64,000 bases of DNA from Nitrososphaeria archaeon (GTDB taxonomy: Archaea > Thermoproteota > Nitrososphaeria > JACIWG01). The stretch covers positions 32,803 to 96,802 of the forward strand of contig CAVVXT010000014.1 of the NCBI GenBank assembly GCA_963752255.1, in the 5' to 3' direction. The notes under the pieces are model-generated. The model was not told where the DNA came from. It searched no databases and saw only the letters and a list, made by a program, of their open reading frames with translations. The position numbers and the translations under genes were made by a program. Of the stretch, positions 1 through 31,414 are shown in pieces. Within the stretch, counting starts at the first letter, position 1, and the number at the start of each line of letters is the position of its first letter.

Positions 1-1605
1 AACATAAAGCACGTAGAGGTTATCACAGAAAACAGCCCGGAAGTGAAGAAATACTTTCTTGGATCTGAAATGGAGATCATTAAAATAAAACCCACGCCAG
101 CACTATTAAAGATCAGACAAGACTTATTGACAACAATTCAAAGAATTAGGGAGAATCTGGATAAAAAAGGCATTTTAGGGAATGTTGAAACATCGTCACT
201 TAAAAAATTAATTGAAATTGGAAAAAAAGATCTCGGAATTGAGGAAAGAAGTCAGATAACATCTCTGATAAGATTGTATCATTGTCTAGATATAGCAGAA
301 TCTCATGGAATAGAACCTTTTATTATCTTCTGTGAAAAGATATTTTTGAAAAGAGGAAAAAGCGCGGCGAATTTAAGGGATGACCTGAACTTTAAAGCAG
401 CTTATGAAACAGCAAAAAGTATGTTGATTGTAAGAGAAGAACATCCTAAAGTCTTAGAATTAAAGAAAATTCTAAAAAACAAGAATGAAGGAGATAGAGT
501 AATTATCTTTTCTAATTATAAAGACACTATTAAAATGCTTTATGAAAAGGCCTTGTTATGGGGACTTAGTGCAGATTATTTAATAGGAAAAAGAGGAGAA
601 TTCAGTCAAAGCCAAAAAAAGCAGTTAGAAACTTTAAACAAAATGAACAAGGGTGAAAAAAATATACTCTTCGCAACTAGAGTGGGGGAAGAAGGCCTTG
701 ACATAATAGAATGTAATTTAGTGATATTCTATGACAGTATATCTGATGCTGTTAGATTTATTCAAAGAAAAGGTAGAACAGGGAGAAAGAAAAAAGGTAG
801 GGTCCTTGTTCTAGTCATGGAAGGTACGAAGGAAGAAGTATTATTCTGGATAGGCAAAAAAAGAATTGAGAAAGGAATGGAAATTATAAAAAAAAGTGAA
901 GTAGCGCAGAATACAGTTCCTTTGGAACGATTTATCAATGGGAAAAATCAAGGAGTAAAAGTAATAGTTGATACACGTGAGAACATAGTCATTAAGACTA
1001 TGTTGAATAATAATCCTAATATTGACGTTGAAGAACAAATGTTGGATGTAGGGGATTTTGTTCTTTCTGAAGATGTCTGTGTAGAAAGGAAAACGTTAAA
1101 GGACTTTGCGTCTTCAATAATTGATGGCAGGTTATTTCCTCAACTAATTCAATTAAAACAAAAATATAGTAAACCTATTCTAATATTAGAAAAAGGTCCA
1201 CAATCAGATAGAATTAGCCAGAATGCATTTTTTGGAGCTTTAGCGAGCGTTATTACAGACTTTAACATAGCTCTAATTATAACCGAGTCTACAGAAGAGA
1301 GTGCAGCTCTAATGTATGTAATAGCAAAAAGGGAGCAAGTAGAGAAAAAAAAGGGTATTAAAATTCGTGAAGGTGAAAAACCTATTAGCATAAAGGAAAT
1401 CCAAAGGTACATTTTGGCTGGAATGCCAGGTGTAAGTAACATCTTAGCAACCCGTTTACTTGAAAGGTTTGGAACTTTACAAAATGTGTTTAATGCATCA
1501 GAAAATGAGTTATTTGATGTAAAAGGTATAGGAGACGTTATGGCAAAAAGAATAAAAGAAATAACTATAGCTGATTTTAATAAAAATCAAAATAAATGCA
1601 ATTAA
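1..1605 (+). CDS. hef: Hef-like helicase/ERCC4 (XPF) nuclease, C-terminal part; 5' end lies outside the window
   Basis: The frame is open from nt 1. It has helicase motif VI QRKGRTGR, then an ERCC4-type nuclease region (VIVDTRE...GDFVLSED) and C-terminal tandem HhH (GMPGVSNILATRLLERFG...DVKGIGDVMAKRI). Confidence 0.6.
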   Translation, partial: NIKHVEVITENSPEVKKYFLGSEMEIIKIKPTPALLKIRQDLLTTIQRIRENLDKKGILGNVETSSLKKLIEIGKKDLGIEERSQITSLIRLYHCLDIAESHGIEPFIIFCEKIFLKRGKSAANLRDDLNFKAAYETAKSMLIVREEHPKVLELKKILKNKNEGDRVIIFSNYKDTIKMLYEKALLWGLSADYLIGKRGEFSQSQKKQLETLNKMNKGEKNILFATRVGEEGLDIIECNLVIFYDSISDAVRFIQRKGRTGRKKKGRVLVLVMEGTKEEVLFWIGKKRIEKGMEIIKKSEVAQNTVPLERFINGKNQGVKVIVDTRENIVIKTMLNNNPNIDVEEQMLDVGDFVLSEDVCVERKTLKDFASSIIDGRLFPQLIQLKQKYSKPILILEKGPQSDRISQNAFFGALASVITDFNIALIITESTEESAALMYVIAKREQVEKKKGIKIREGEKPISIKEIQRYILAGMPGVSNILATRLLERFGTLQNVFNASENELFDVKGIGDVMAKRIKEITIADFNKNQNKCN

Positions 1606-2249: not shown

Positions 2250-2348
2250 CGCCGGGGAAGGGACTTGAACCCTTGAAACGGTAGAGCCGTTACCGGCTAT
2301 CTTGTTGGATCTCGAGGCCGGCCCTTTCGACCACTCAGGCACCCCGGC
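2250..2348 (-). tRNA. tRNA-Ser (CGA) with a 12-nt intron in the anticodon loop
   Basis: The 99-nt minus-strand gene has acceptor gccgggg/ccccggc, a 3-bp D-stem, anticodon stem ccggc/gccgg interrupted by atccaacaagat after position 37, variable-arm hairpin aacgg/ccgtt and T-arm aagggttcaagtccctt. Confidence 0.65.
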
Positions 2349-16547: not shown

Positions 16548-16973
16548 TTAATTGTCCCAAAAAGGTCTAGTTCTTATGAAAACCTTTTCAGCTCGGTATA
16601 TTTCCCTTAGTAATTCTTCTTCGCTTGCCTTTTTGTCAAGTATTCTAACCGCATTTGATGGACCAACTCCGTATCCTGAAAGAACGTAGACAGCTTTCTT
16701 ACCATAATTTTGAATTAGCGAGGAAGTCTTCCATAACTTTTTGTATTCATCAAATTCCTCCTTTGAAAGCTTTTTGTTCTGAAGTTTTTTCTTTATTATA
16801 TCTCTCGCGGTTTCATTCCAACTCGAGACCATTGTCATCAATCTAGATCGACATCTCTGACAATAAATTGGCTCAGTTACTTCCTTTGTTAAAATTGTCT
16901 TCTCAAATTTTCCACAGGAGAGACATAAAAATTTATGTTTTCTATTTTCAAGTCTTTCCTTTATTGTATTCAA
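16548..16973 (-). CDS. Zn-ribbon protein immediately downstream of the Lhr-like helicase; TTG start
   Basis: It has a C4 motif CLSCG...CQRC and starts 9 nt after the helicase stop in a different frame. Confidence 0.35.
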   Translation of the reverse strand: MNTIKERLENRKHKFLCLSCGKFEKTILTKEVTEPIYCQRCRSRLMTMVSSWNETARDIIKKKLQNKKLSKEEFDEYKKLWKTSSLIQNYGKKAVYVLSGYGVGPSNAVRILDKKASEEELLREIYRAEKVFIRTRPFWDN

Positions 16974-16984
16974 AATAGTTATAC

Positions 16985-19279
16985 TTACATCGTACGCTGT
17001 TGTTGCACTTTAGATTTGTACCTGAATCCAATCTTGGCTAATGGGGAGAAATCTTTACTGTTTTTTATTAAAACATCAATTTTTCCTTCTCTAATATCGT
17101 TTAGAATTTTATTTGCGTTATCAATATCAAACTTATCTGTAAAAATTTCATTTAAAACCTCTAAATATAGTGGTGTACCAAAATATCTCTTTAAAATAAG
17201 AGAACTAAAGCGGCCATCATATGCTACACCTTTTGGAATGATACCAAATCGTTTACCTATATGCCATCCTCTGGTTTTCATTAAGCTAGAATCTCTAACA
17301 GCAACTTCCAAAATTTCTCTGAGATTAAATTGCCCAGTTAATGTTTCCTTGATAATTTCTGGGGTTAAAATCTCACCTCCACTTATTATAATCCTATAAG
17401 GGTCGTATGTATATTCAATAACATAACCAAGCTTCGAAGTCAGAACCGTTGAAAGCAACGTTCCAAGAGTATTGTTTATTTTCGTCCCACAGCATGAGTG
17501 AATGACATAGGTACTGTCATCAATTTTTTTTTCAATAACTAGATGTTTATCATCTGGAATCATTCCTATCTGATCTTTTGTTTCCTCAAAAATCTTTTTA
17601 GCCTCTTGACAAATATTTTCACGCTTGTAATCTCTTCTAATCTTACCTACAAGTACAGCTGTTTTCTGATCGACTGGAATAAGTTCGCCCATCCAATAAG
17701 GAATTTCACTTTCTGGAATATTTTTTGGTTCAACTTTAACTATTTGTTTAACGTCGTCTATTGATAGAACATTCCAAGCAGTACCTCTTAAAACAAAAGG
17801 TCTTTCTTGCTCTAATGCTTCTCTGACAAAAAGTTGATCCACATTCCCTACTCTCATATTGTTTACAACATTAATAACAGAATACTGTAAATTTTCAGGG
17901 ATCATTGAGACATTACCGAAGTAATAAGTGAAACATTTACTCCCTCTATAAACAGTATCACCATCAAAGTGAACTGCTTTTATTTCCGATAAAATTTTTA
18001 TAATTTCAATAATGTTCTCAGAATTAAGCTCTGTATAAAATATAGTTTCCTTGGCCATTCCAATTATCTCTTCAGACTTTATTGCCTTGTATACTAAGGC
18101 TAGACCTACTATTTGATGTGCTAAAACGTCCAGAGCACAATAATGTAATACAGGTTCTTCAAGTTCTCCCTTTTCTATTAACTTGCATATTGCAGCCGTC
18201 TCGATATGATCGTCGATGGAATTATTTAAAATAAGTCCTTTAGCAATTCCTCCAACTTTATGCTCACTTCTTCCTACACGTTGCAAAAGCTTGACTGCTT
18301 GTCTTGGTGAGTCGATTTGTATAACAAGAGAAACAGCACCGATATCGATCCCCATTTCAAGAGACGATGTTGTGACTACAACCTTTGCTATTCCCTCTCT
18401 TAGCTCCTTCTCCGCTTGTTCTCTACTTTCTTTAGATAGAGAGCCATGATGAACCTCGATCAGTATCTCAGGATTTTTTGCCTTAATTAACGCTGCTAAA
18501 TATTCTGCCGTTTGCCTAGTATTTGTGAAGATTATAGTTGATCTATTACCCTTGATTTGCTCAAATATATTTTCTATTGCAACTTTTGCAATATTGGTTA
18601 ATTCACCATCGACGAACTTATTTTCAAATAAATATTGACGAGATATTTTATCGATTACAACAGCTCCCTTTCTTTTAACACCAAAGAGAAACTTCTTTGC
18701 TTTGTCTGGAGAACCAATAGTAGCAGATAGACCGATCCGGACAAATCTCGGACTAATTTTTTCCAATCTTTCCAGTGAAAATGCAAGATGCACTCCCCTT
18801 TTGCTGTTTATAAGTTCATGAACTTCATCAACGATGACCCATTCAATATTCTCTAATTTTTTAATAAATTTAGGTAATGCTAGGAGAATGCTCAATGTTT
18901 CTGGAGTAGATATTAGGAGGTCAGGTGGTTCTTCTTGTATCATTCTTCGTCTAGATGCTGATGTGTCTCCATGTCTAACGTCAACGTTTAGGCCGAAATA
19001 ATCTGCATAGCTCTTGATTCTACGAAATAGGTCTCTGTTGAGAGCTCTCAAAGGTGTGATGTACAAAATTCTGGGGTTTTTATGCTCTTTATCTTTTGAG
19101 ATAAGGTAAAATATAGGTAAAATAGCTGCCTCAGTTTTTCCAGTGCCTGTGGGAGAAATAATTAACGTATTAACCTTGTTCAGTATGATTGGAAAAGTTT
19201 TTTTCTGAATTTTAGTTAGATCTTTAAAGCCAAGTCTACTTACATGTACGATCAGCTCATCCAGTCTGGTTTCTTTCAT
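16985..19279 (-). CDS. lhr: Lhr-type DExH-box ATP-dependent helicase
   Basis: It has Walker A SPTGTGKT, DEVHE, helicase motif VI and an Lhr-like N-terminus (KIQKKTFPIILNKVNTLIISPTGTGKTEAAILPI). Confidence 0.7.
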   Translation of the reverse strand: MKETRLDELIVHVSRLGFKDLTKIQKKTFPIILNKVNTLIISPTGTGKTEAAILPIFYLISKDKEHKNPRILYITPLRALNRDLFRRIKSYADYFGLNVDVRHGDTSASRRRMIQEEPPDLLISTPETLSILLALPKFIKKLENIEWVIVDEVHELINSKRGVHLAFSLERLEKISPRFVRIGLSATIGSPDKAKKFLFGVKRKGAVVIDKISRQYLFENKFVDGELTNIAKVAIENIFEQIKGNRSTIIFTNTRQTAEYLAALIKAKNPEILIEVHHGSLSKESREQAEKELREGIAKVVVTTSSLEMGIDIGAVSLVIQIDSPRQAVKLLQRVGRSEHKVGGIAKGLILNNSIDDHIETAAICKLIEKGELEEPVLHYCALDVLAHQIVGLALVYKAIKSEEIIGMAKETIFYTELNSENIIEIIKILSEIKAVHFDGDTVYRGSKCFTYYFGNVSMIPENLQYSVINVVNNMRVGNVDQLFVREALEQERPFVLRGTAWNVLSIDDVKQIVKVEPKNIPESEIPYWMGELIPVDQKTAVLVGKIRRDYKRENICQEAKKIFEETKDQIGMIPDDKHLVIEKKIDDSTYVIHSCCGTKINNTLGTLLSTVLTSKLGYVIEYTYDPYRIIISGGEILTPEIIKETLTGQFNLREILEVAVRDSSLMKTRGWHIGKRFGIIPKGVAYDGRFSSLILKRYFGTPLYLEVLNEIFTDKFDIDNANKILNDIREGKIDVLIKNSKDFSPLAKIGFRYKSKVQQQRTM

Positions 19280-19539: not shown

Positions 19540-19572
19540 TCGTCAAAACTTAATAAAGTAGGTTTAAAACTT

Positions 19573-19928: not shown

Positions 19929-20672
19929 GTGGGTGGCCGAAGAATTGACATACTTTACGATAAAGCTGCTTTAGTTTTTAATTCTCCAAATAAAAACTTC
20001 TTTTGCATTACTGACTTACATTTGGGTTATACGCCTTCATCATCAATTCCATTACATAATAAGAGATTGGCTGAAGAACTTGCTGAAAAAATAGTTGAAT
20101 TATCAAAAAAAGCCAAAGCAGAAAACTTAATTCTCTTAGGCGATGTTAAACACACTATTGTTCGTGTTTCATATTCTGATCGATCATTACTTGATTCATT
20201 CTTCGCAACCTTAAGGCTGTTCTTTAAAGAAATATACCTTATATTAGGAAATCACGATGGATCAATATCTAAAGCTCTTCCAACTTATGTTAAGCCTATA
20301 AAAAAAGGCATATTGTTAAATAACGTATATTTTATGCACGGCCATGCTCTTCCAGGGCAAGATGTTCTAAAATCAAACTTGATCGTGATGGGGCATCTCC
20401 ATCCATTGTTCTACAAGGAGCATTCACCGTTAAATGGACAACGAGTATGGATTCTCATGAAATTATCATTGAAAAAAGTGTTTCCTTGGAAAGATAAGAT
20501 ATATCGGCTGATAGTTATGCCTCCATTTAACTATGAAATTTCTTTCCCTATGGGTCACATATACACTCCAAATCTCAATAGCAGAATATCTCCTTTGTTG
20601 AACAGATGCAAAGAAGATGTGCTTGAAACTAAGATAATATCCCTTGATGGAACTATTCTGTCACAAGTTTGA
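19929..20672 (+). CDS. calcineurin-like metallophosphoesterase (MPE-type nuclease candidate)
   Basis: It has the motifs ITDLHLG, LGDVKH, GNHD and GHLHP. Confidence 0.6.
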   Translation: MGGRRIDILYDKAALVFNSPNKNFFCITDLHLGYTPSSSIPLHNKRLAEELAEKIVELSKKAKAENLILLGDVKHTIVRVSYSDRSLLDSFFATLRLFFKEIYLILGNHDGSISKALPTYVKPIKKGILLNNVYFMHGHALPGQDVLKSNLIVMGHLHPLFYKEHSPLNGQRVWILMKLSLKKVFPWKDKIYRLIVMPPFNYEISFPMGHIYTPNLNSRISPLLNRCKEDVLETKIISLDGTILSQV

Positions 20673-20768
20673 TCATTTAAGAATAAATTAAACTTATCCA
20701 AGTTTCGCCCCAAATGCCTTTCCGCTTGTAATAAGTTGTGGTCATGCAAACTATCTAACAGTTTAGTA

Positions 20769-20844
20769 TGGGGTCGGTGGGATTTGAACCCACGATTTCA
20801 CGGGCCCGAGCCGTGTAGCCTGAACCATGCTAGCTGACGACCCC
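20769..20844 (-). tRNA. tRNA-Pro (CGG)
   Basis: The minus-strand fold has acceptor ggggtcg/cgacccc, anticodon stem cacgg/ccgtg with loop cuCGGgc, and T-arm gtgggttcaaatcccac. Confidence 0.6.
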
Positions 20845-20913
20845 CCCTTAACATCGATATCAAAAGGATAACCATATATACCCTTATCAAGTCTAAAAAA
20901 AATCGCCGAGGGC

Positions 20914-21016
20914 GCCGAGATACCATTTCGCTCGAGAGCTCAGCTTGGTCAGAGCGTTGGACTCATAATCCAGAGGCCGCGGGTTCGAAACATTCGCGAG
21001 AAGCCCGCTCTCGGCA
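20914..21016 (+). tRNA. tRNA-Met/Ile2-type (CAT) interrupted by two short non-canonical introns (one near positions 8/9, one beside the T-loop)
   Basis: Acceptor gccgaga at 20914-20920 pairs with tctcggc at 21009-21015. Removing 15 nt (accatttcgctcgag) and 13 nt (cattcgcgagaag) leaves a 75-nt cloverleaf with D-stem gctc/gagc, anticodon stem ttgga/tccag with loop cuCATaa, and T-arm gcgggttcgaaacccgc. Confidence 0.45.
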
Positions 21017-21047
21017 TTAACATTATCTAATTTTATAGAAAATAAAA

Positions 21048-21121
21048 AGCCCTAGGCGGGGATTGAACCCGCGGCCTCCGCCTTACCAAGGCGGCGCTCA
21101 ACCAGGCTGAGCTACCAGGGC
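21048..21121 (-). tRNA. tRNA-Thr (GGT)
   Basis: The minus-strand sequence gccctggtagctcagcctggttgagcgccgccttGGTaaggcggaggccgcgggttcaatccccgcctagggct folds as a cloverleaf with anticodon GGT. Confidence 0.75.
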
Positions 21122-21261
21122 ACGAATACCCTTATCTTTTTTGTATTTATTATTTAAAGTAGTTGTTCTCAAGTTTTTTTTAATTTTTTTGTGCTTGTAA
21201 CTGGTAAACCAAATATTTTTATATGAAATAACTGTCGGGTCTTTCGTAACATTGAGCTAAA

Positions 21262-22206
21262 ATGTCAGAAAATAAAGAGTCACGAAAAACCTTTGAACCT
21301 AAGGATGAATTTGAAATGCTTGAGTATTGGAAGAAATTGGATGTTTATCATTCTTTTAGTAAGTCATATGACTGGTTTGTCATAGATATTCCTCCACCTT
21401 ACGCAACAGGATCAATGCATGTTGGTGGCTCAGCGCATTACATTCAGATCGATATGATCGCTAGATATTTTAGAATGAATAAGATGAATGTTAACTTTCC
21501 TTGGGGAGTTGACAGGAACGGTTTACCTGTTGAATTAATAGCAGAAAAAAAGTTGAACAAAAGAGCGACAGAAATACCACGCGACATCTTCCTGCAACAA
21601 TGCAAAAAAATTCTTGATGAAACAGAGCATAGAATAGTAGATACACTCTTACGTGTTGGCTTAAGTTGTGATTTCGATCGAGGTTATAAAACGGATTCTC
21701 CAGAATTTCGTGCCTTCACGCAATCGACTTTTATCAAGGTTTGGGATAAGGGATTAGTTTATGAGGAAGAGCGACCTGTTAACTGGTGCCCAAGTTGTAG
21801 AACCACTATCGCTGATGCGGAATTGGATAAAGAAGAAAGAACTTCATCACTGTTCCACATAAGATTCGATCTTAAAAATGACAGAGATAAGGTTGATCAA
21901 ATCGTTGTAGCGACAACGCGACCTGAGCTGATTGGAGCTTGTCAAGCAATAATATATAATCCTTCAGATTCTAGGTACTCATACCTAGATAGCAGATCTG
22001 CCATAGTACCAGTTTATGGTCACAAGGTTCCAATTATTTCTCATCCATATGCAAAACCCGAATTTGGGAGTGGCATAATTATGATTTGCTCTTATGGAGA
22101 TCAATCAGATATCCGCCTCTTTAAGGAATTGAAGCTTAAGCCAAGAGTGTTACTTAACGAGGATGCACGGATAAAGGAAAATGCAGGACCGCTAGGCAGG
22201 GCTTAA
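21262..22206 (+). CDS. class Ia aminoacyl-tRNA synthetase (ValRS/IleRS-like), N-terminal fragment with catalytic core start and CP1 editing domain
   Basis: It has PPPYATGSMHVGGSAHY in the HIGH position (HVGG, degenerate), WCPSCRTTIADAEL, and the editing motif ATTRPELIGACQAIIYNP. It ends at TAA one nucleotide before the next ORF. Confidence 0.55.
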   Translation: MSENKESRKTFEPKDEFEMLEYWKKLDVYHSFSKSYDWFVIDIPPPYATGSMHVGGSAHYIQIDMIARYFRMNKMNVNFPWGVDRNGLPVELIAEKKLNKRATEIPRDIFLQQCKKILDETEHRIVDTLLRVGLSCDFDRGYKTDSPEFRAFTQSTFIKVWDKGLVYEEERPVNWCPSCRTTIADAELDKEERTSSLFHIRFDLKNDRDKVDQIVVATTRPELIGACQAIIYNPSDSRYSYLDSRSAIVPVYGHKVPIISHPYAKPEFGSGIIMICSYGDQSDIRLFKELKLKPRVLLNEDARIKENAGPLGRA

Positions 22207-22207
22207 A

Positions 22208-23683
22208 GTGAATGATGCGAGAAAAAAGATACTATCCATACTAGAAGGAGAAGGTAGACTAATCAAGAAAGAATCTACTGTACAAACAGTACCTGTCTGC
22301 TGGCGTTGTTCAACTCCTGTAGAATATATTAACGTGAAAGAATACTATCTTAAGCAAATTGATTTTCTTCAAGATATACTCAAATTTTCAAGGGAACAGA
22401 TAAGTTTCTTTCCTCCCGAATCAGTTAACATACTGATAGACTGGATTAGTTCGATATCTTCTGATTGGCCGATCTCCCGGAGACGCTTCTACGGTACAGA
22501 ATTGCCTGTATGGTACTGTAAAAAATGTGGCACACCAAATCTTCCACCACCTGGACCATATTATCAGCCTTGGAGAGAAAATTTTCCATTAAAGTCATGC
22601 AAAAAATGTGGTGGTAAAGAATTCGTTGGAGAAGATCGTACCTTTGACACATGGGTCGATTCGAGTATTTCAGCTTTGTATATATTAGAAATGGCAAAGA
22701 AACTTGGCTATGCAGAACTGTCAGTCCCAGTAAGCATTCGTCCTCAAGGAATTGACATAGTTAGAACTTGGCTTTTTTATTCATTACTACGTATTTATCA
22801 GCTAACTGATAAACCCGCCTTTAAATGGGTTCGTATTTCTGGAATGGGTCTCGACGAACATGGGCATGCTATGCATCGACACCTTGGCAATGTTGTATAC
22901 CCTGAATCAATGGTAAACAGATACGGCGCAGATTCCTTCAGGTTATGGACTGCCAGCGAATCCAAATTGGGTTCTAATTATCTATTTTCAGAAAGTAGAG
23001 TTGCTGGTGCAAGAAAATTCATTACAAAATTATGGAATGTTTATAGATTTATCTCACAATTTGAGCCTCTTAAAGAAGGTGAGTACGAACTCGAGCCGAT
23101 TGACATCGCAATTTTAGAAAAGCTTGACGAATTAGTCTTAGAGTGTAAAAATTCCTTTAAACAGCTAGATCCATTTGGAGCTGCAAAGTCTATTAGATAC
23201 TTTGTCTGGGATATATTTGCTGACCACTACATAGAAGCCGTTAAATCACGTGTGTACAACAGGAGTAATGATTTTTCATCTTATTCATCAAAAGGAGCCG
23301 TCTATACTTTATACTTTGTTTTAGACAATGTCTCCAAACTACTCGCCCCGATTTCACCATTTGTTACAGAAGGCATCTATCAGGCTATTCCGCATCATAA
23401 GAAGAGCATACACATAGAAGATTATCCTTCTCCTAGGGGATTAGAAAAGAAATACTCACCTGTCTTTGACATGTTTATGCAGTTGAACTCTATGATTTGG
23501 AATTACAAGAAAGGAAAATCTCTATCTTTGACATCCGCCGTTTCTGGGTTATGTATTCCATCAGAGCTTAAGGTCTTTGAAAAAGAGATCACTTCTATGC
23601 ACAAAATCGGTGTTATCACATACGATACTGCATCAGTAAAAGATTTCGAAAAACTTTCTGAGAATTATTTCATAAAACTATAG
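22208..23683 (+). CDS. the same synthetase, C-terminal fragment (catalytic core end plus anticodon-binding domain), in the +1 frame
   Basis: It has CWRCSTPVEY, and GMGLDEHGHAMHRHLGNVVYPESMVNRYGADSFRLW aligns with the KMSKS region, so KMSKS is replaced by AMHRH. Confidence 0.55.
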   Translation: MNDARKKILSILEGEGRLIKKESTVQTVPVCWRCSTPVEYINVKEYYLKQIDFLQDILKFSREQISFFPPESVNILIDWISSISSDWPISRRRFYGTELPVWYCKKCGTPNLPPPGPYYQPWRENFPLKSCKKCGGKEFVGEDRTFDTWVDSSISALYILEMAKKLGYAELSVPVSIRPQGIDIVRTWLFYSLLRIYQLTDKPAFKWVRISGMGLDEHGHAMHRHLGNVVYPESMVNRYGADSFRLWTASESKLGSNYLFSESRVAGARKFITKLWNVYRFISQFEPLKEGEYELEPIDIAILEKLDELVLECKNSFKQLDPFGAAKSIRYFVWDIFADHYIEAVKSRVYNRSNDFSSYSSKGAVYTLYFVLDNVSKLLAPISPFVTEGIYQAIPHHKKSIHIEDYPSPRGLEKKYSPVFDMFMQLNSMIWNYKKGKSLSLTSAVSGLCIPSELKVFEKEITSMHKIGVITYDTASVKDFEKLSENYFIKL

Positions 23684-26677: not shown

Positions 26678-28181
<1,504 letters not shown>

Positions 28182-28318
28182 TTGAACGTTGGTTAACTGA
28201 CGAGTAGCATGATTAACGCCTTAGATGCAATTCGTGATCTAGACGATCATGGATGAAGGACATAGAGGGCTATATTCCCTCAATGATTGTCGTGCATAGT
28301 TGCGACAGCCAGAATAGT

Positions 28319-31414
<3,096 letters not shown>

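What the first reader, a model, noticed from the sequence alone, without database searches (positions are those of the whole stretch)
20914..21016. tRNA-Met(CAT)-type gene apparently interrupted by two non-canonical introns
The acceptor halves gccgaga and tctcggc lie 103 nt apart. Removing 15 nt after position 8 and 13 nt beside the T-loop gives a clean 75-nt cloverleaf with anticodon CAT. Introns at non-canonical positions, and several per tRNA, are known in Thermoproteales and some other archaea, but each case is worth confirming, and the exact splice junctions here are inferred by eye.
Basis: seen in the sequence. Interest (0 to 1): 0.5.

Follow-up and report, generated by a model that had tools for sequence, protein, structure and literature searches.

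The report
Thaumarchaeal tRNA(CAU) gene with two introns
This is a real, conserved archaeal tRNA gene (anticodon CAU) interrupted by two short protein-spliced introns at unusual positions, which is a routine feature of its phylum, with one small unexplained extra: a conserved copy of the tRNA's first bases sitting just upstream.

Summary
Window 20914-21016 (+) encodes a 75-nt elongator-type tRNA(CAU) split into three exons by a 15-nt insert (20922-20936, position 8/9) and a 13-nt insert (20990-21002). ARAGORN and Rfam (at gathering score) miss the gene. After in-silico splicing, ARAGORN calls a clean cloverleaf. The organism is a deep-branching Nitrososphaeria (Thaumarchaeota) archaeon. Twenty-five further loci (13 distinct sequences including the window) keep both inserts at the same sites. 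Exons are near-invariant, all BHB pairs are intact, and the insert loops drift. Two-intron tRNAs are routine in this phylum (39 of 498 genes in the tRNAscan-SE 2.0 survey), and 59/60 is a known processing site. It is therefore a new member of a known kind. Met versus Ile2 identity is unresolved; it is not an initiator. The 9-nt leader (20905-20913) is a conserved copy of the acceptor 5' strand. It may help expose the first BHB, or be a tolerated tandem duplication, or less likely be the true exon 1.

The parts
20866..20888 (.). Quasi-palindromic promoter-like box GGATAACCATATATACCCTTATC (TATA-like core 20874-20881), lying between the divergent tRNA-Pro(cgg) and tRNA(CAU) genes
   Evidence: The core AACCATATATACC is conserved in all orthologous loci except L014, which has one substitution (AACCCTATATACC). 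It sits exactly 35 nt upstream of the leader's first G in both clades. The spacing matches the boxes of other tRNAs in the window. Promoter function is inferred, not shown.
20905..20913 (+). 5' leader GCCGAGGGC: a near-tandem copy of the acceptor 5' strand. Together with G20914 it is complementary over 10 bp to the 3' end CGCTCTCGGC. The probable transcription start is its first G.
   Evidence: Present in all 13 distinct orthologues (9 nt GCCGAGRGC, or 11 nt GCCGRGAGCGT). It varies only A<->G at two sites opposite U66 and U68. It gives the longest leader/3'-strand helix among 39 tRNAs tested. It lowers the computed cost of forming BHB-1 in 13 of 13 sequences. Any function is inferred.
20914..20921 (+). 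Exon 1: tRNA positions 1-8 (GCCGAGAU)
   Evidence: Invariant in all 13 distinct sequences. It supplies U8, as in 38 of 38 other tRNAs of the lineage.
20922..20936 (+). Intron 1 (15 nt, ACCATTTCGCTCGAG) at position 8/9. BHB-1 has a central helix C3-G6/CUCG, bulges AUA and AGA, an outer helix G1C2/G10C11, and a single C-G pair closing the loop (relaxed hBH type).
   Evidence: Geometry. The helix and bulge nucleotides are fixed while the 5-6 loop nucleotides differ between orthologues. Registers 8/9 and 9/10 give the same mature sequence; the BHB rule selects 8/9.
20937..20989 (+). Exon 2: tRNA positions 9-59 (D arm, anticodon arm with CAT at 20964-20966, variable loop, T-stem 5' strand and T-loop to A59)
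   Evidence: Rfam tRNA local match to model positions 9-63, 27.6 bits. Near-invariant in the orthologues.
20990..21002 (+). Intron 2 (13 nt, ACATTCGCGAGAA) at position 59/60. BHB-2 has a central helix U54-G57/CGAG, bulges AAA and AAG, and the 5-bp T-stem as outer helix.
   Evidence: Geometry. In the orthologues CGAG<->CGAA keeps the pair with U54 (G.U<->A-U), and the loop nucleotides and length vary.
21003..21016 (+). Exon 3: tRNA positions 60-73 (G60, T-stem 3' strand, acceptor 3' strand, discriminator A73). No CCA is encoded.
   Evidence: Invariant in all orthologues. It completes the cloverleaf.

Best explanation
A functional elongator-type tRNA(CAU) gene of a Nitrososphaeria archaeon. It is probably transcribed from a conserved TATA-type promoter starting at about G20905, as a roughly 112-nt precursor (9-nt leader plus 103 nt). 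The precursor carries two short introns, at 8/9 and 59/60. Each intron is presented in a bulge-helix-bulge motif that the archaeal splicing endonuclease cuts after the second nucleotide of each 3-nt bulge; Thaumarchaeota have the broad-specificity (alpha-beta)2 type. The three exons are then joined, by RtcB-type ligase in archaea, the leader is removed by RNase P, and CCA is added. The product is a 75-nt tRNA reading AUG (Met), or AUA if C34 is agmatinylated (Ile2). Shown here: gene anatomy, BHB geometry, conservation and phylogenetic distribution. Inferred: transcription start, enzymes, order of processing steps, and isotype.
For: In-silico splicing gives a canonical cloverleaf called by ARAGORN. 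An independent Rfam hit covers the middle exon and starts at the intron-1 junction. Both inserts meet strict BHB geometry at the cloverleaf-defined junctions. The same geometry rule recovers 37/38 for the window's ordinary intron-bearing tRNA-Ser. Twenty-five further loci (13 distinct sequences including the window), from Nitrososphaeria MAGs and from metagenome contigs, keep both inserts, the promoter box and the exons. The loci reached through aRF1 homologues span about 76-90% aRF1 identity to the window. All 286 pair cells of the BHB and anticodon helices are standard pairs, against 20-48% in slid controls, and variation is concentrated in the insert loops. Literature: Thaumarchaeota have (alpha-beta)2 EndA and many non-canonical and double introns (PMC4090602; PMC8450103). 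Position 59/60 is a known BHB junction (PMC3218864).
Against: There are no expression or splicing data. There is no double-sided covariation in any BHB helix; only two one-sided, pairing-compatible changes were seen. The flanking helix h' is a single C-G pair in both motifs, and h of BHB-1 is only 2 bp. In thermodynamic models BHB-1 is not the favoured fold in the window's clade (P <= 0.04). BHB geometry alone has a joint chance level of about 1%. EndA, RtcB and RNase P were not found in the window, by a crude motif scan and Rfam. Promoter spacing fits the upstream GCCGAG copy as the 5' end about as well as it fits a 9-nt leader.
Confidence: 0.85

Rival explanations
1. Model B: the upstream copy (20905-20912, GCCGAGGG) is the true exon 1 of a leaderless transcript. 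A 24-nt intron (20913-20936), containing the inner GCCGAGAU copy, is removed, giving a tRNA with G7.U66 and G8.
For: The BHB geometry is the same (x=20912, y=20937, H 4/4, h 2). The promoter box lies at -31/-29 from the outer copy, like the -29 to -32 seen for several other tRNAs of the window. The box-to-outer-copy distance is fixed at 35 nt in both clades, while the outer-to-inner offset is 9 or 11 nt. The outer copy varies only R<->R opposite U66 and U68, as a real acceptor strand could.
Against: It would give G8, whereas 38 of 38 other tRNAs in the lineage have U8 and U8 is near-universal. The inner copy GCCGAGAUAC is invariant in 13 of 13 sequences although it would be intron loop, while true loop nucleotides next to it drift. 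The outer copy is more variable than any exon stem. tRNA-Ser of L013 shows that such a duplicated 5' copy can exist as a plain leader on a gene with no intron to remove it.
Confidence: 0.08
2. A decaying or non-functional tRNA relic whose inserts are not spliced.
For: No expression data. Standard tools do not call it. The window shows at least one frameshifted gene nearby (ValRS).
Against: Exons, BHB nucleotides and promoter are conserved across the clade while flanks and insert loops diverge. Against the 96.4%-identical L009, the 112-nt precursor has a single difference, in the leader. This is the signature of purifying selection on a spliced product.
Confidence: 0.04
3. An intron-free 72-nt tRNA lying between the two inserts, as Rfam parses it in the sister clade.
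For: Rfam RF00005 full-length hits of 35-40 bits in L006, L010, L016, L030 and L013.
Against: That parse has A8, three non-standard T-stem pairs plus a 3-nt deletion, and an acceptor stem made from insert 1 and insert 2 sequence. It does not exist in the window's clade, where only the local 9-63 hit appears. The two-intron model gives 21 of 21 stem pairs in all 13 sequences.
Confidence: 0.01

Closest known systems
Multi-intron tRNA genes of Thaumarchaeota and Crenarchaeota (non-canonical BHB introns; SPLITS and tRNAscan-SE 2.0 catalogues)
   Same: Short inserts (13-15 nt) at non-anticodon positions. Each sits in a 3-nt bulge / 4-bp helix / 3-nt bulge motif of the relaxed hBH type, with two per gene. 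The host phylum has (alpha-beta)2 EndA. In 11 thaumarchaeal genomes, 39 of 498 tRNA genes have two introns and there are 107 non-canonical introns (PMC8450103 main text and Table S7; PMC4090602).
   Different: I could not confirm from the held literature that 8/9 is a catalogued position. The lineage (uncultured deep Nitrososphaeria from peat, hot springs and sediments) is not among the surveyed genomes. The conserved leader copy of the acceptor strand is not described in the papers I read.
Permuted tRNAs of Thermofilum pendens (iMet, Tyr) and Cyanidioschyzon merolae, joined at 59/60
   Same: The same T-loop position (59/60) is used as a BHB processing junction (PMC3218864).
   Different: Here the exons are colinear, so this is an ordinary cis intron. 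There is no permutation and no circular intermediate is required.
Split (trans-spliced) tRNAs of Nanoarchaeum equitans and Crenarchaeota
   Same: Extra sequence outside the mature tRNA base-pairs with tRNA-derived sequence during processing (PMC4090602, PMC4033280).
   Different: There, leader and trailer of two transcripts pair with each other to build the BHB itself. Here the leader is on the same transcript, is not part of either BHB, and would pair with the acceptor 3' strand.

Membership tests
tRNA (cloverleaf, class I) | 7-bp acceptor, 4-bp D, 5-bp anticodon and 5-bp T stems, with conserved U8, A14, G18G19, U33, G53, U54U55C56, A58 and C61 after removal of the inserts | tested here: met
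   ARAGORN calls the 75-nt spliced sequence as tRNA(cat) with all stems paired. Rfam matches model positions 9-63 on the unspliced DNA.
Archaeal BHB (splicing-endonuclease) intron | Two 3-nt bulges on opposite strands separated by a 4-bp helix, with both splice sites after the second bulge nucleotide | tested here: met
   Intron 1: CGAG/CUCG with bulges AUA and AGA. Intron 2: UUCG/CGAG with bulges AAA and AAG. The rule was validated on the window's tRNA-Ser 37/38 intron. The cut-site rule itself rests on the established A-I pair and BHB geometry, recalled from knowledge.
Archaeal BHB (splicing-endonuclease) intron | Flanking helices h and h' (full hBHBh' motif) | tested here: inconclusive
   h is 2 bp (intron 1) and 5 bp (intron 2, the T-stem). 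h' is a single C-G pair in both, or 2 bp in the sister clade's intron 2. This is the relaxed hBH form, which only broad-specificity endonucleases accept.
Archaeal BHB (splicing-endonuclease) intron | Cleavage by EndA and ligation by RtcB in vivo or in vitro | not testable with these tools
   No RNA data. No EndA or RtcB motif in the window by a crude scan. The (alpha-beta)2 enzyme type for the phylum is taken from PMC4090602.
Archaeal BHB (splicing-endonuclease) intron | Conservation pattern: motif nucleotides constrained, loop free to vary | tested here: met
   286 of 286 pair cells are standard pairs. Variable columns cluster in the two loops. No double-sided covariation was seen.
Archaeal initiator tRNA | A1-U72 and three consecutive G-C pairs (29-31/39-41) in the anticodon stem | tested here: not met
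   G1-C72. The anticodon stem is U27.G43, U28-A42, G29-C41, G30-C40, A31-U39. The feature list is from established knowledge.
Elongator tRNA-Met versus tRNA-Ile2 (agmatidine) | Isotype-specific identity elements (isotype covariance models; TiaS and IleRS determinants) | not testable with these tools
   No tRNA-Ile(GAU) and no second CAU gene in any fetched locus for comparison. Isotype models are not available here.
Permuted or split tRNA | 3' part encoded upstream of the 5' part, or on another locus | tested here: not met
   The three exons are colinear within 103 nt.

The most novel reading that the evidence does not exclude
The conserved 5' leader is a built-in decoy for the acceptor stem. 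BHB-1 must be built from acceptor nucleotides 1-6, so the mature acceptor helix and BHB-1 are mutually exclusive. A leader that copies the acceptor 5' strand could hold the 3' strand and keep exon 1 free to pair with intron 1 until the endonuclease has cut, after which RNase P removes the decoy. Leader-assisted presentation of a splice motif within a single pre-tRNA is not described in the papers I read.
Probability: 0.2. Interest if true: 0.55.

Novelty: new member of a known kind. Interest (0 to 1): 0.3.

Why it matters
The practical value is for annotation. This CAU tRNA is invisible to ARAGORN and to Rfam at gathering score, so genomes of this Nitrososphaeria clade would appear to lack a Met or Ile2 tRNA unless a BHB-aware tool is used. 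It also extends the record of double non-canonical introns to uncultured, non-surveyed Thaumarchaeota. It shows the two introns have been stable across a clade reaching down to about 76% aRF1 identity to the window. If the leader-decoy idea were correct, it would address how the endonuclease gains access to introns whose BHB competes with the acceptor stem. At present that is only a hypothesis with mixed computational support.

Tried and rejected
1. ARAGORN with intron options on the unspliced locus found nothing; it only models anticodon-loop introns.
3. An exact-sequence lookup of the window's aRF1 found no record, so homologues were used instead.
4. Synteny-based search in Nitrososphaerales (L031) found no tRNA at the locus, so the age of the introns beyond the clade could not be determined.
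5. Raw pair probabilities for the leader-decoy idea were mixed. BHB-1 forms at P 0.5-0.96 with the leader in the 11-nt-leader clade, but only 0.01-0.04 in the window's clade, and the leader helix invades the T-stem and suppresses BHB-2. Enforced-structure costs are more favourable: the BHB-1 cost falls by about 5-9 kcal/mol in 13 of 13 sequences.
6. A search for more 5'-proximal-intron tRNAs in clade loci, to test whether leader mimicry is general, found none.
7. The control for leader copies at other tRNAs found no exact copy of 5 nt or more in 38 genes. It did find an independent 8-nt near-tandem duplication at tRNA-Ser of L013, which favours a neutral duplication origin.
8. Rfam's intron-free 72-nt parse in the sister clade was rejected.
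9. Met versus Ile2 could not be decided, because no comparator tRNAs were in the fetched loci.
10. Motif scans for EndA and RtcB in the window found nothing.
11. Marck & Grosjean 2003 and Sugahara 2007 are not held in the library, so the catalogue status of position 8/9 is unverified.

Full report
**What is at the locus**

Window 20914-21016 (+) reads GCCGAGAT | ACCATTTCGCTCGAG | AGCTCAGCTTGGTCAGAGCGTTGGACTCATAATCCAGAGGCCGCGGGTTCGAA | ACATTCGCGAGAA | GCCCGCTCTCGGCA.

The window is archaeal, with a 16S-23S operon at 26678-31414. ARAGORN finds ten tRNAs in the window and Rfam eleven, but neither calls this locus. ARAGORN with its intron options also fails.

A permissive Rfam scan matches the tRNA model to the middle piece only: 20937-20997, model positions 9-63, 27.6 bits against a 29-bit cutoff. 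The match begins exactly at the proposed 3' end of the first insert.

Removing the two inserts gives a 75-nt sequence that ARAGORN calls tRNA(cat). All four stems are paired and the usual invariant residues are present.

**Splice junctions**

I scored every junction pair for strict bulge-helix-bulge (BHB) geometry. The requirements were a 4-bp central helix, a 3-nt bulge on each strand, and a cut after the second bulge nucleotide. This rule follows from the established anticodon-intron pair geometry, recalled from knowledge.

- Insert 1 fits at 20921|20922 and 20936|20937. The central helix is C3-G6 with CUCG, the bulges are AUA and AGA, and the outer helix is G1C2/G10C11.
- Insert 2 fits at 20989|20990 and 21002|21003. 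The central helix is U54-G57 with CGAG, the bulges are AAA and AAG, and the outer helix is the T-stem.

The introns therefore lie at 8/9 and 59/60.

The inner helices (h') are single C-G pairs, which makes these relaxed hBH motifs.

As an internal control, the same rule recovers the canonical 37/38 junction of the window's intron-bearing tRNA-Ser at 2250-2348 (-). That intron has one mismatch in the central helix and a 6-bp outer helix.

Geometry alone is not overwhelming. Shuffled inserts reach a 4/4 central helix in one of five registers in 7% and 15% of trials, about 1% jointly.

**Organism and relatives**

- The neighbouring aRF1 places the organism among deep Nitrososphaeria. Named MAG hits have 75-81% identity, and Nitrososphaerales only about 60%.
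- Syntenic loci fetched through aRF1 homologues, a species-representative genome scan and a metagenome scan gave 25 further loci with the orthologous gene. Including the window, these make 13 distinct sequences.
- One locus, L009, is a SPRUCE-peat MAG that is 96.4% identical to the window.
- All of them keep both inserts at the same sites.
- Exon 1 and exon 3 are invariant, and exon 2 changes at five columns.
- Within the inserts, the nucleotides forming helices and bulges are fixed, except for purine swaps in a bulge and in the pair with U54 (G.U<->A-U). The 5-6 loop nucleotides differ between lineages.
- On the alignment, all 286 pair cells of the BHB and anticodon helices are standard pairs, against 20-48% in slid controls. 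There is no double-sided covariation. The support is therefore a conservation pattern, not covariation.
- Unrelated tRNA(CAU) genes sharing the anticodon arm either have no intron or, in one group (L012, L019, L026), have a different D-arm insert.
- In Nitrososphaerales the synteny is lost, so the age of the introns beyond this clade is unknown.

**An apparent refutation, examined**

In the sister clade, Rfam reports a full-length 72-nt tRNA lying between the inserts, at 35-40 bits. The alignment shows why this parse is not credible:

- It has A8 rather than U8.
- Its T-stem has three non-standard pairs and a 3-nt deletion.
- Its acceptor stem is built from the 3' end of insert 1 and part of insert 2.
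- It is absent from the window's clade.

I reject it.

**Mechanism**

By analogy with the documented system, the precursor is cut at both BHBs by the splicing endonuclease. Thaumarchaeota have the (alpha-beta)2 type, which accepts relaxed motifs at non-canonical positions (PMC4090602; PMC3241643). The exons are then ligated, the leader is removed and CCA is added; no CCA is encoded. None of these steps could be tested here, and the enzymes are not encoded in the window.

**Isotype**

G1-C72 and an anticodon stem with only two G-C pairs exclude an initiator. Elongator Met and Ile2 cannot be separated with the available data.

**The leader**

Immediately upstream, 20905-20913 (GCCGAGGGC) repeats the acceptor 5' strand. 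Together with G1 it is complementary over 10 bp to the 3' end.

- It is present in all orthologues, as a 9-nt or an 11-nt version.
- It varies only A<->G at two sites opposite U66 and U68.
- It starts exactly 35 nt after the conserved promoter-like box in both versions.
- No other tRNA in the lineage has an exact copy of 5 nt or more, and its leader/3'-strand helix is the longest of 39 tested.

BHB-1 uses acceptor nucleotides 1-6, so it competes with the acceptor stem. Without the leader, the acceptor stem forms (P=0.98) and BHB-1 does not. With the leader, the computed cost of BHB-1 falls from 7.7-14.0 to 2.7-5.8 kcal/mol in all 13 sequences. That suggests a decoy role.

The support is mixed:

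- BHB-1 is still not favoured in the window's clade.
- The leader helix invades the T-stem and penalises BHB-2.
- tRNA-Ser of L013 carries an independent 8-nt near-tandem copy of its own 5' end although it has no 5'-proximal intron. This points to a recurrent, tolerated duplication.

**Alternative for exon 1 (model B)**

The upstream copy could be the true exon 1, with a 24-nt intron. This has the same BHB geometry and fits the promoter spacing. It would give G8, whereas 38 of 38 lineage tRNAs have U8. It would also leave the invariant inner copy unexplained.

**Comparison with what is known, and verdict**

Double non-canonical introns are routine in Thaumarchaeota. The tRNAscan-SE 2.0 survey reports 107 non-canonical introns, and 39 of 498 genes with two introns, and the program carries a phylum-specific BHB model (PMC8450103). 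Position 59/60 is the junction of permuted tRNAs in Thermofilum pendens and C. merolae (PMC3218864).

The finding is correct and is a new member of a known kind. Its practical value is for annotation. The conserved leader copy is the only unusual element and remains a hypothesis.

Noticed in passing
window 21262-23683 (break near 22193-22208): The valyl-tRNA synthetase gene is split into 314-aa and 491-aa ORFs by a single-base insertion (CTAGG versus CT-GG in the 96.4%-identical L009). Relatives encode one 804-806-aa protein. This is either an assembly error or a recent pseudogene.
   Followed up: partly
window 20769-20913: tRNA-Pro(cgg) (-) and the tRNA(CAU) gene (+) are divergent and only 69 nt apart. 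Between them lies one quasi-palindromic box, GGATAACCATATATACCCTTATC, conserved in all relatives. It may be a single TATA element with inverted flanking elements that serves both directions.
   Followed up: partly
L013, directly upstream of tRNA-Ser(cga) at 194-292 (-): An 8-nt insertion, gccgaggt, is a 7/8 near-tandem copy of the tRNA's own first 8 nt (GCCGGGGT). It is absent from the orthologues in L010, L011, L016 and the window. It is a second, independent duplication of a tRNA 5' end in this lineage.
   Followed up: partly
window 2250-2348 (-): A class II tRNA-Ser(cga) with a 12-nt intron at 37/38, whose BHB central helix has a C.A mismatch. Default ARAGORN misses it; Rfam finds it at 47 bits.
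   Followed up: yes
L012 7173-7268, L019 1155-1250, L026 127-222: An unrelated archaeal tRNA(CAU) with the same anticodon arm carries an insert of about 18 nt in the D arm (ggttaga|acctttgggctagacta|agcgct). It has no intron at 8/9 or 59/60.
   Followed up: partly
window 19929-21262 versus L001-L005 and L032: Relatives carry about 5.5 kb of extra genes (an amino-acid permease and three or four others) between the tRNA cluster and the phosphoesterase-like gene. The window lacks them.
   Followed up: no
window 16985-19279 (-): The Lhr-type helicase ORF is 764 aa here, against about 910 aa called in relatives. A 141-aa ORF (16548-16973) lies just downstream on the same strand, so this may be a second frame disruption.
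   Followed up: no
window 19540-19550 and orthologues: The tRNA-Thr(tgt) leader GUUUUGA can form 7 pairs (3 of them G.U) with its own acceptor 3' strand, and is partly conserved in relatives. It is probably chance, but it was the runner-up in the leader-complementarity control.
   Followed up: partly
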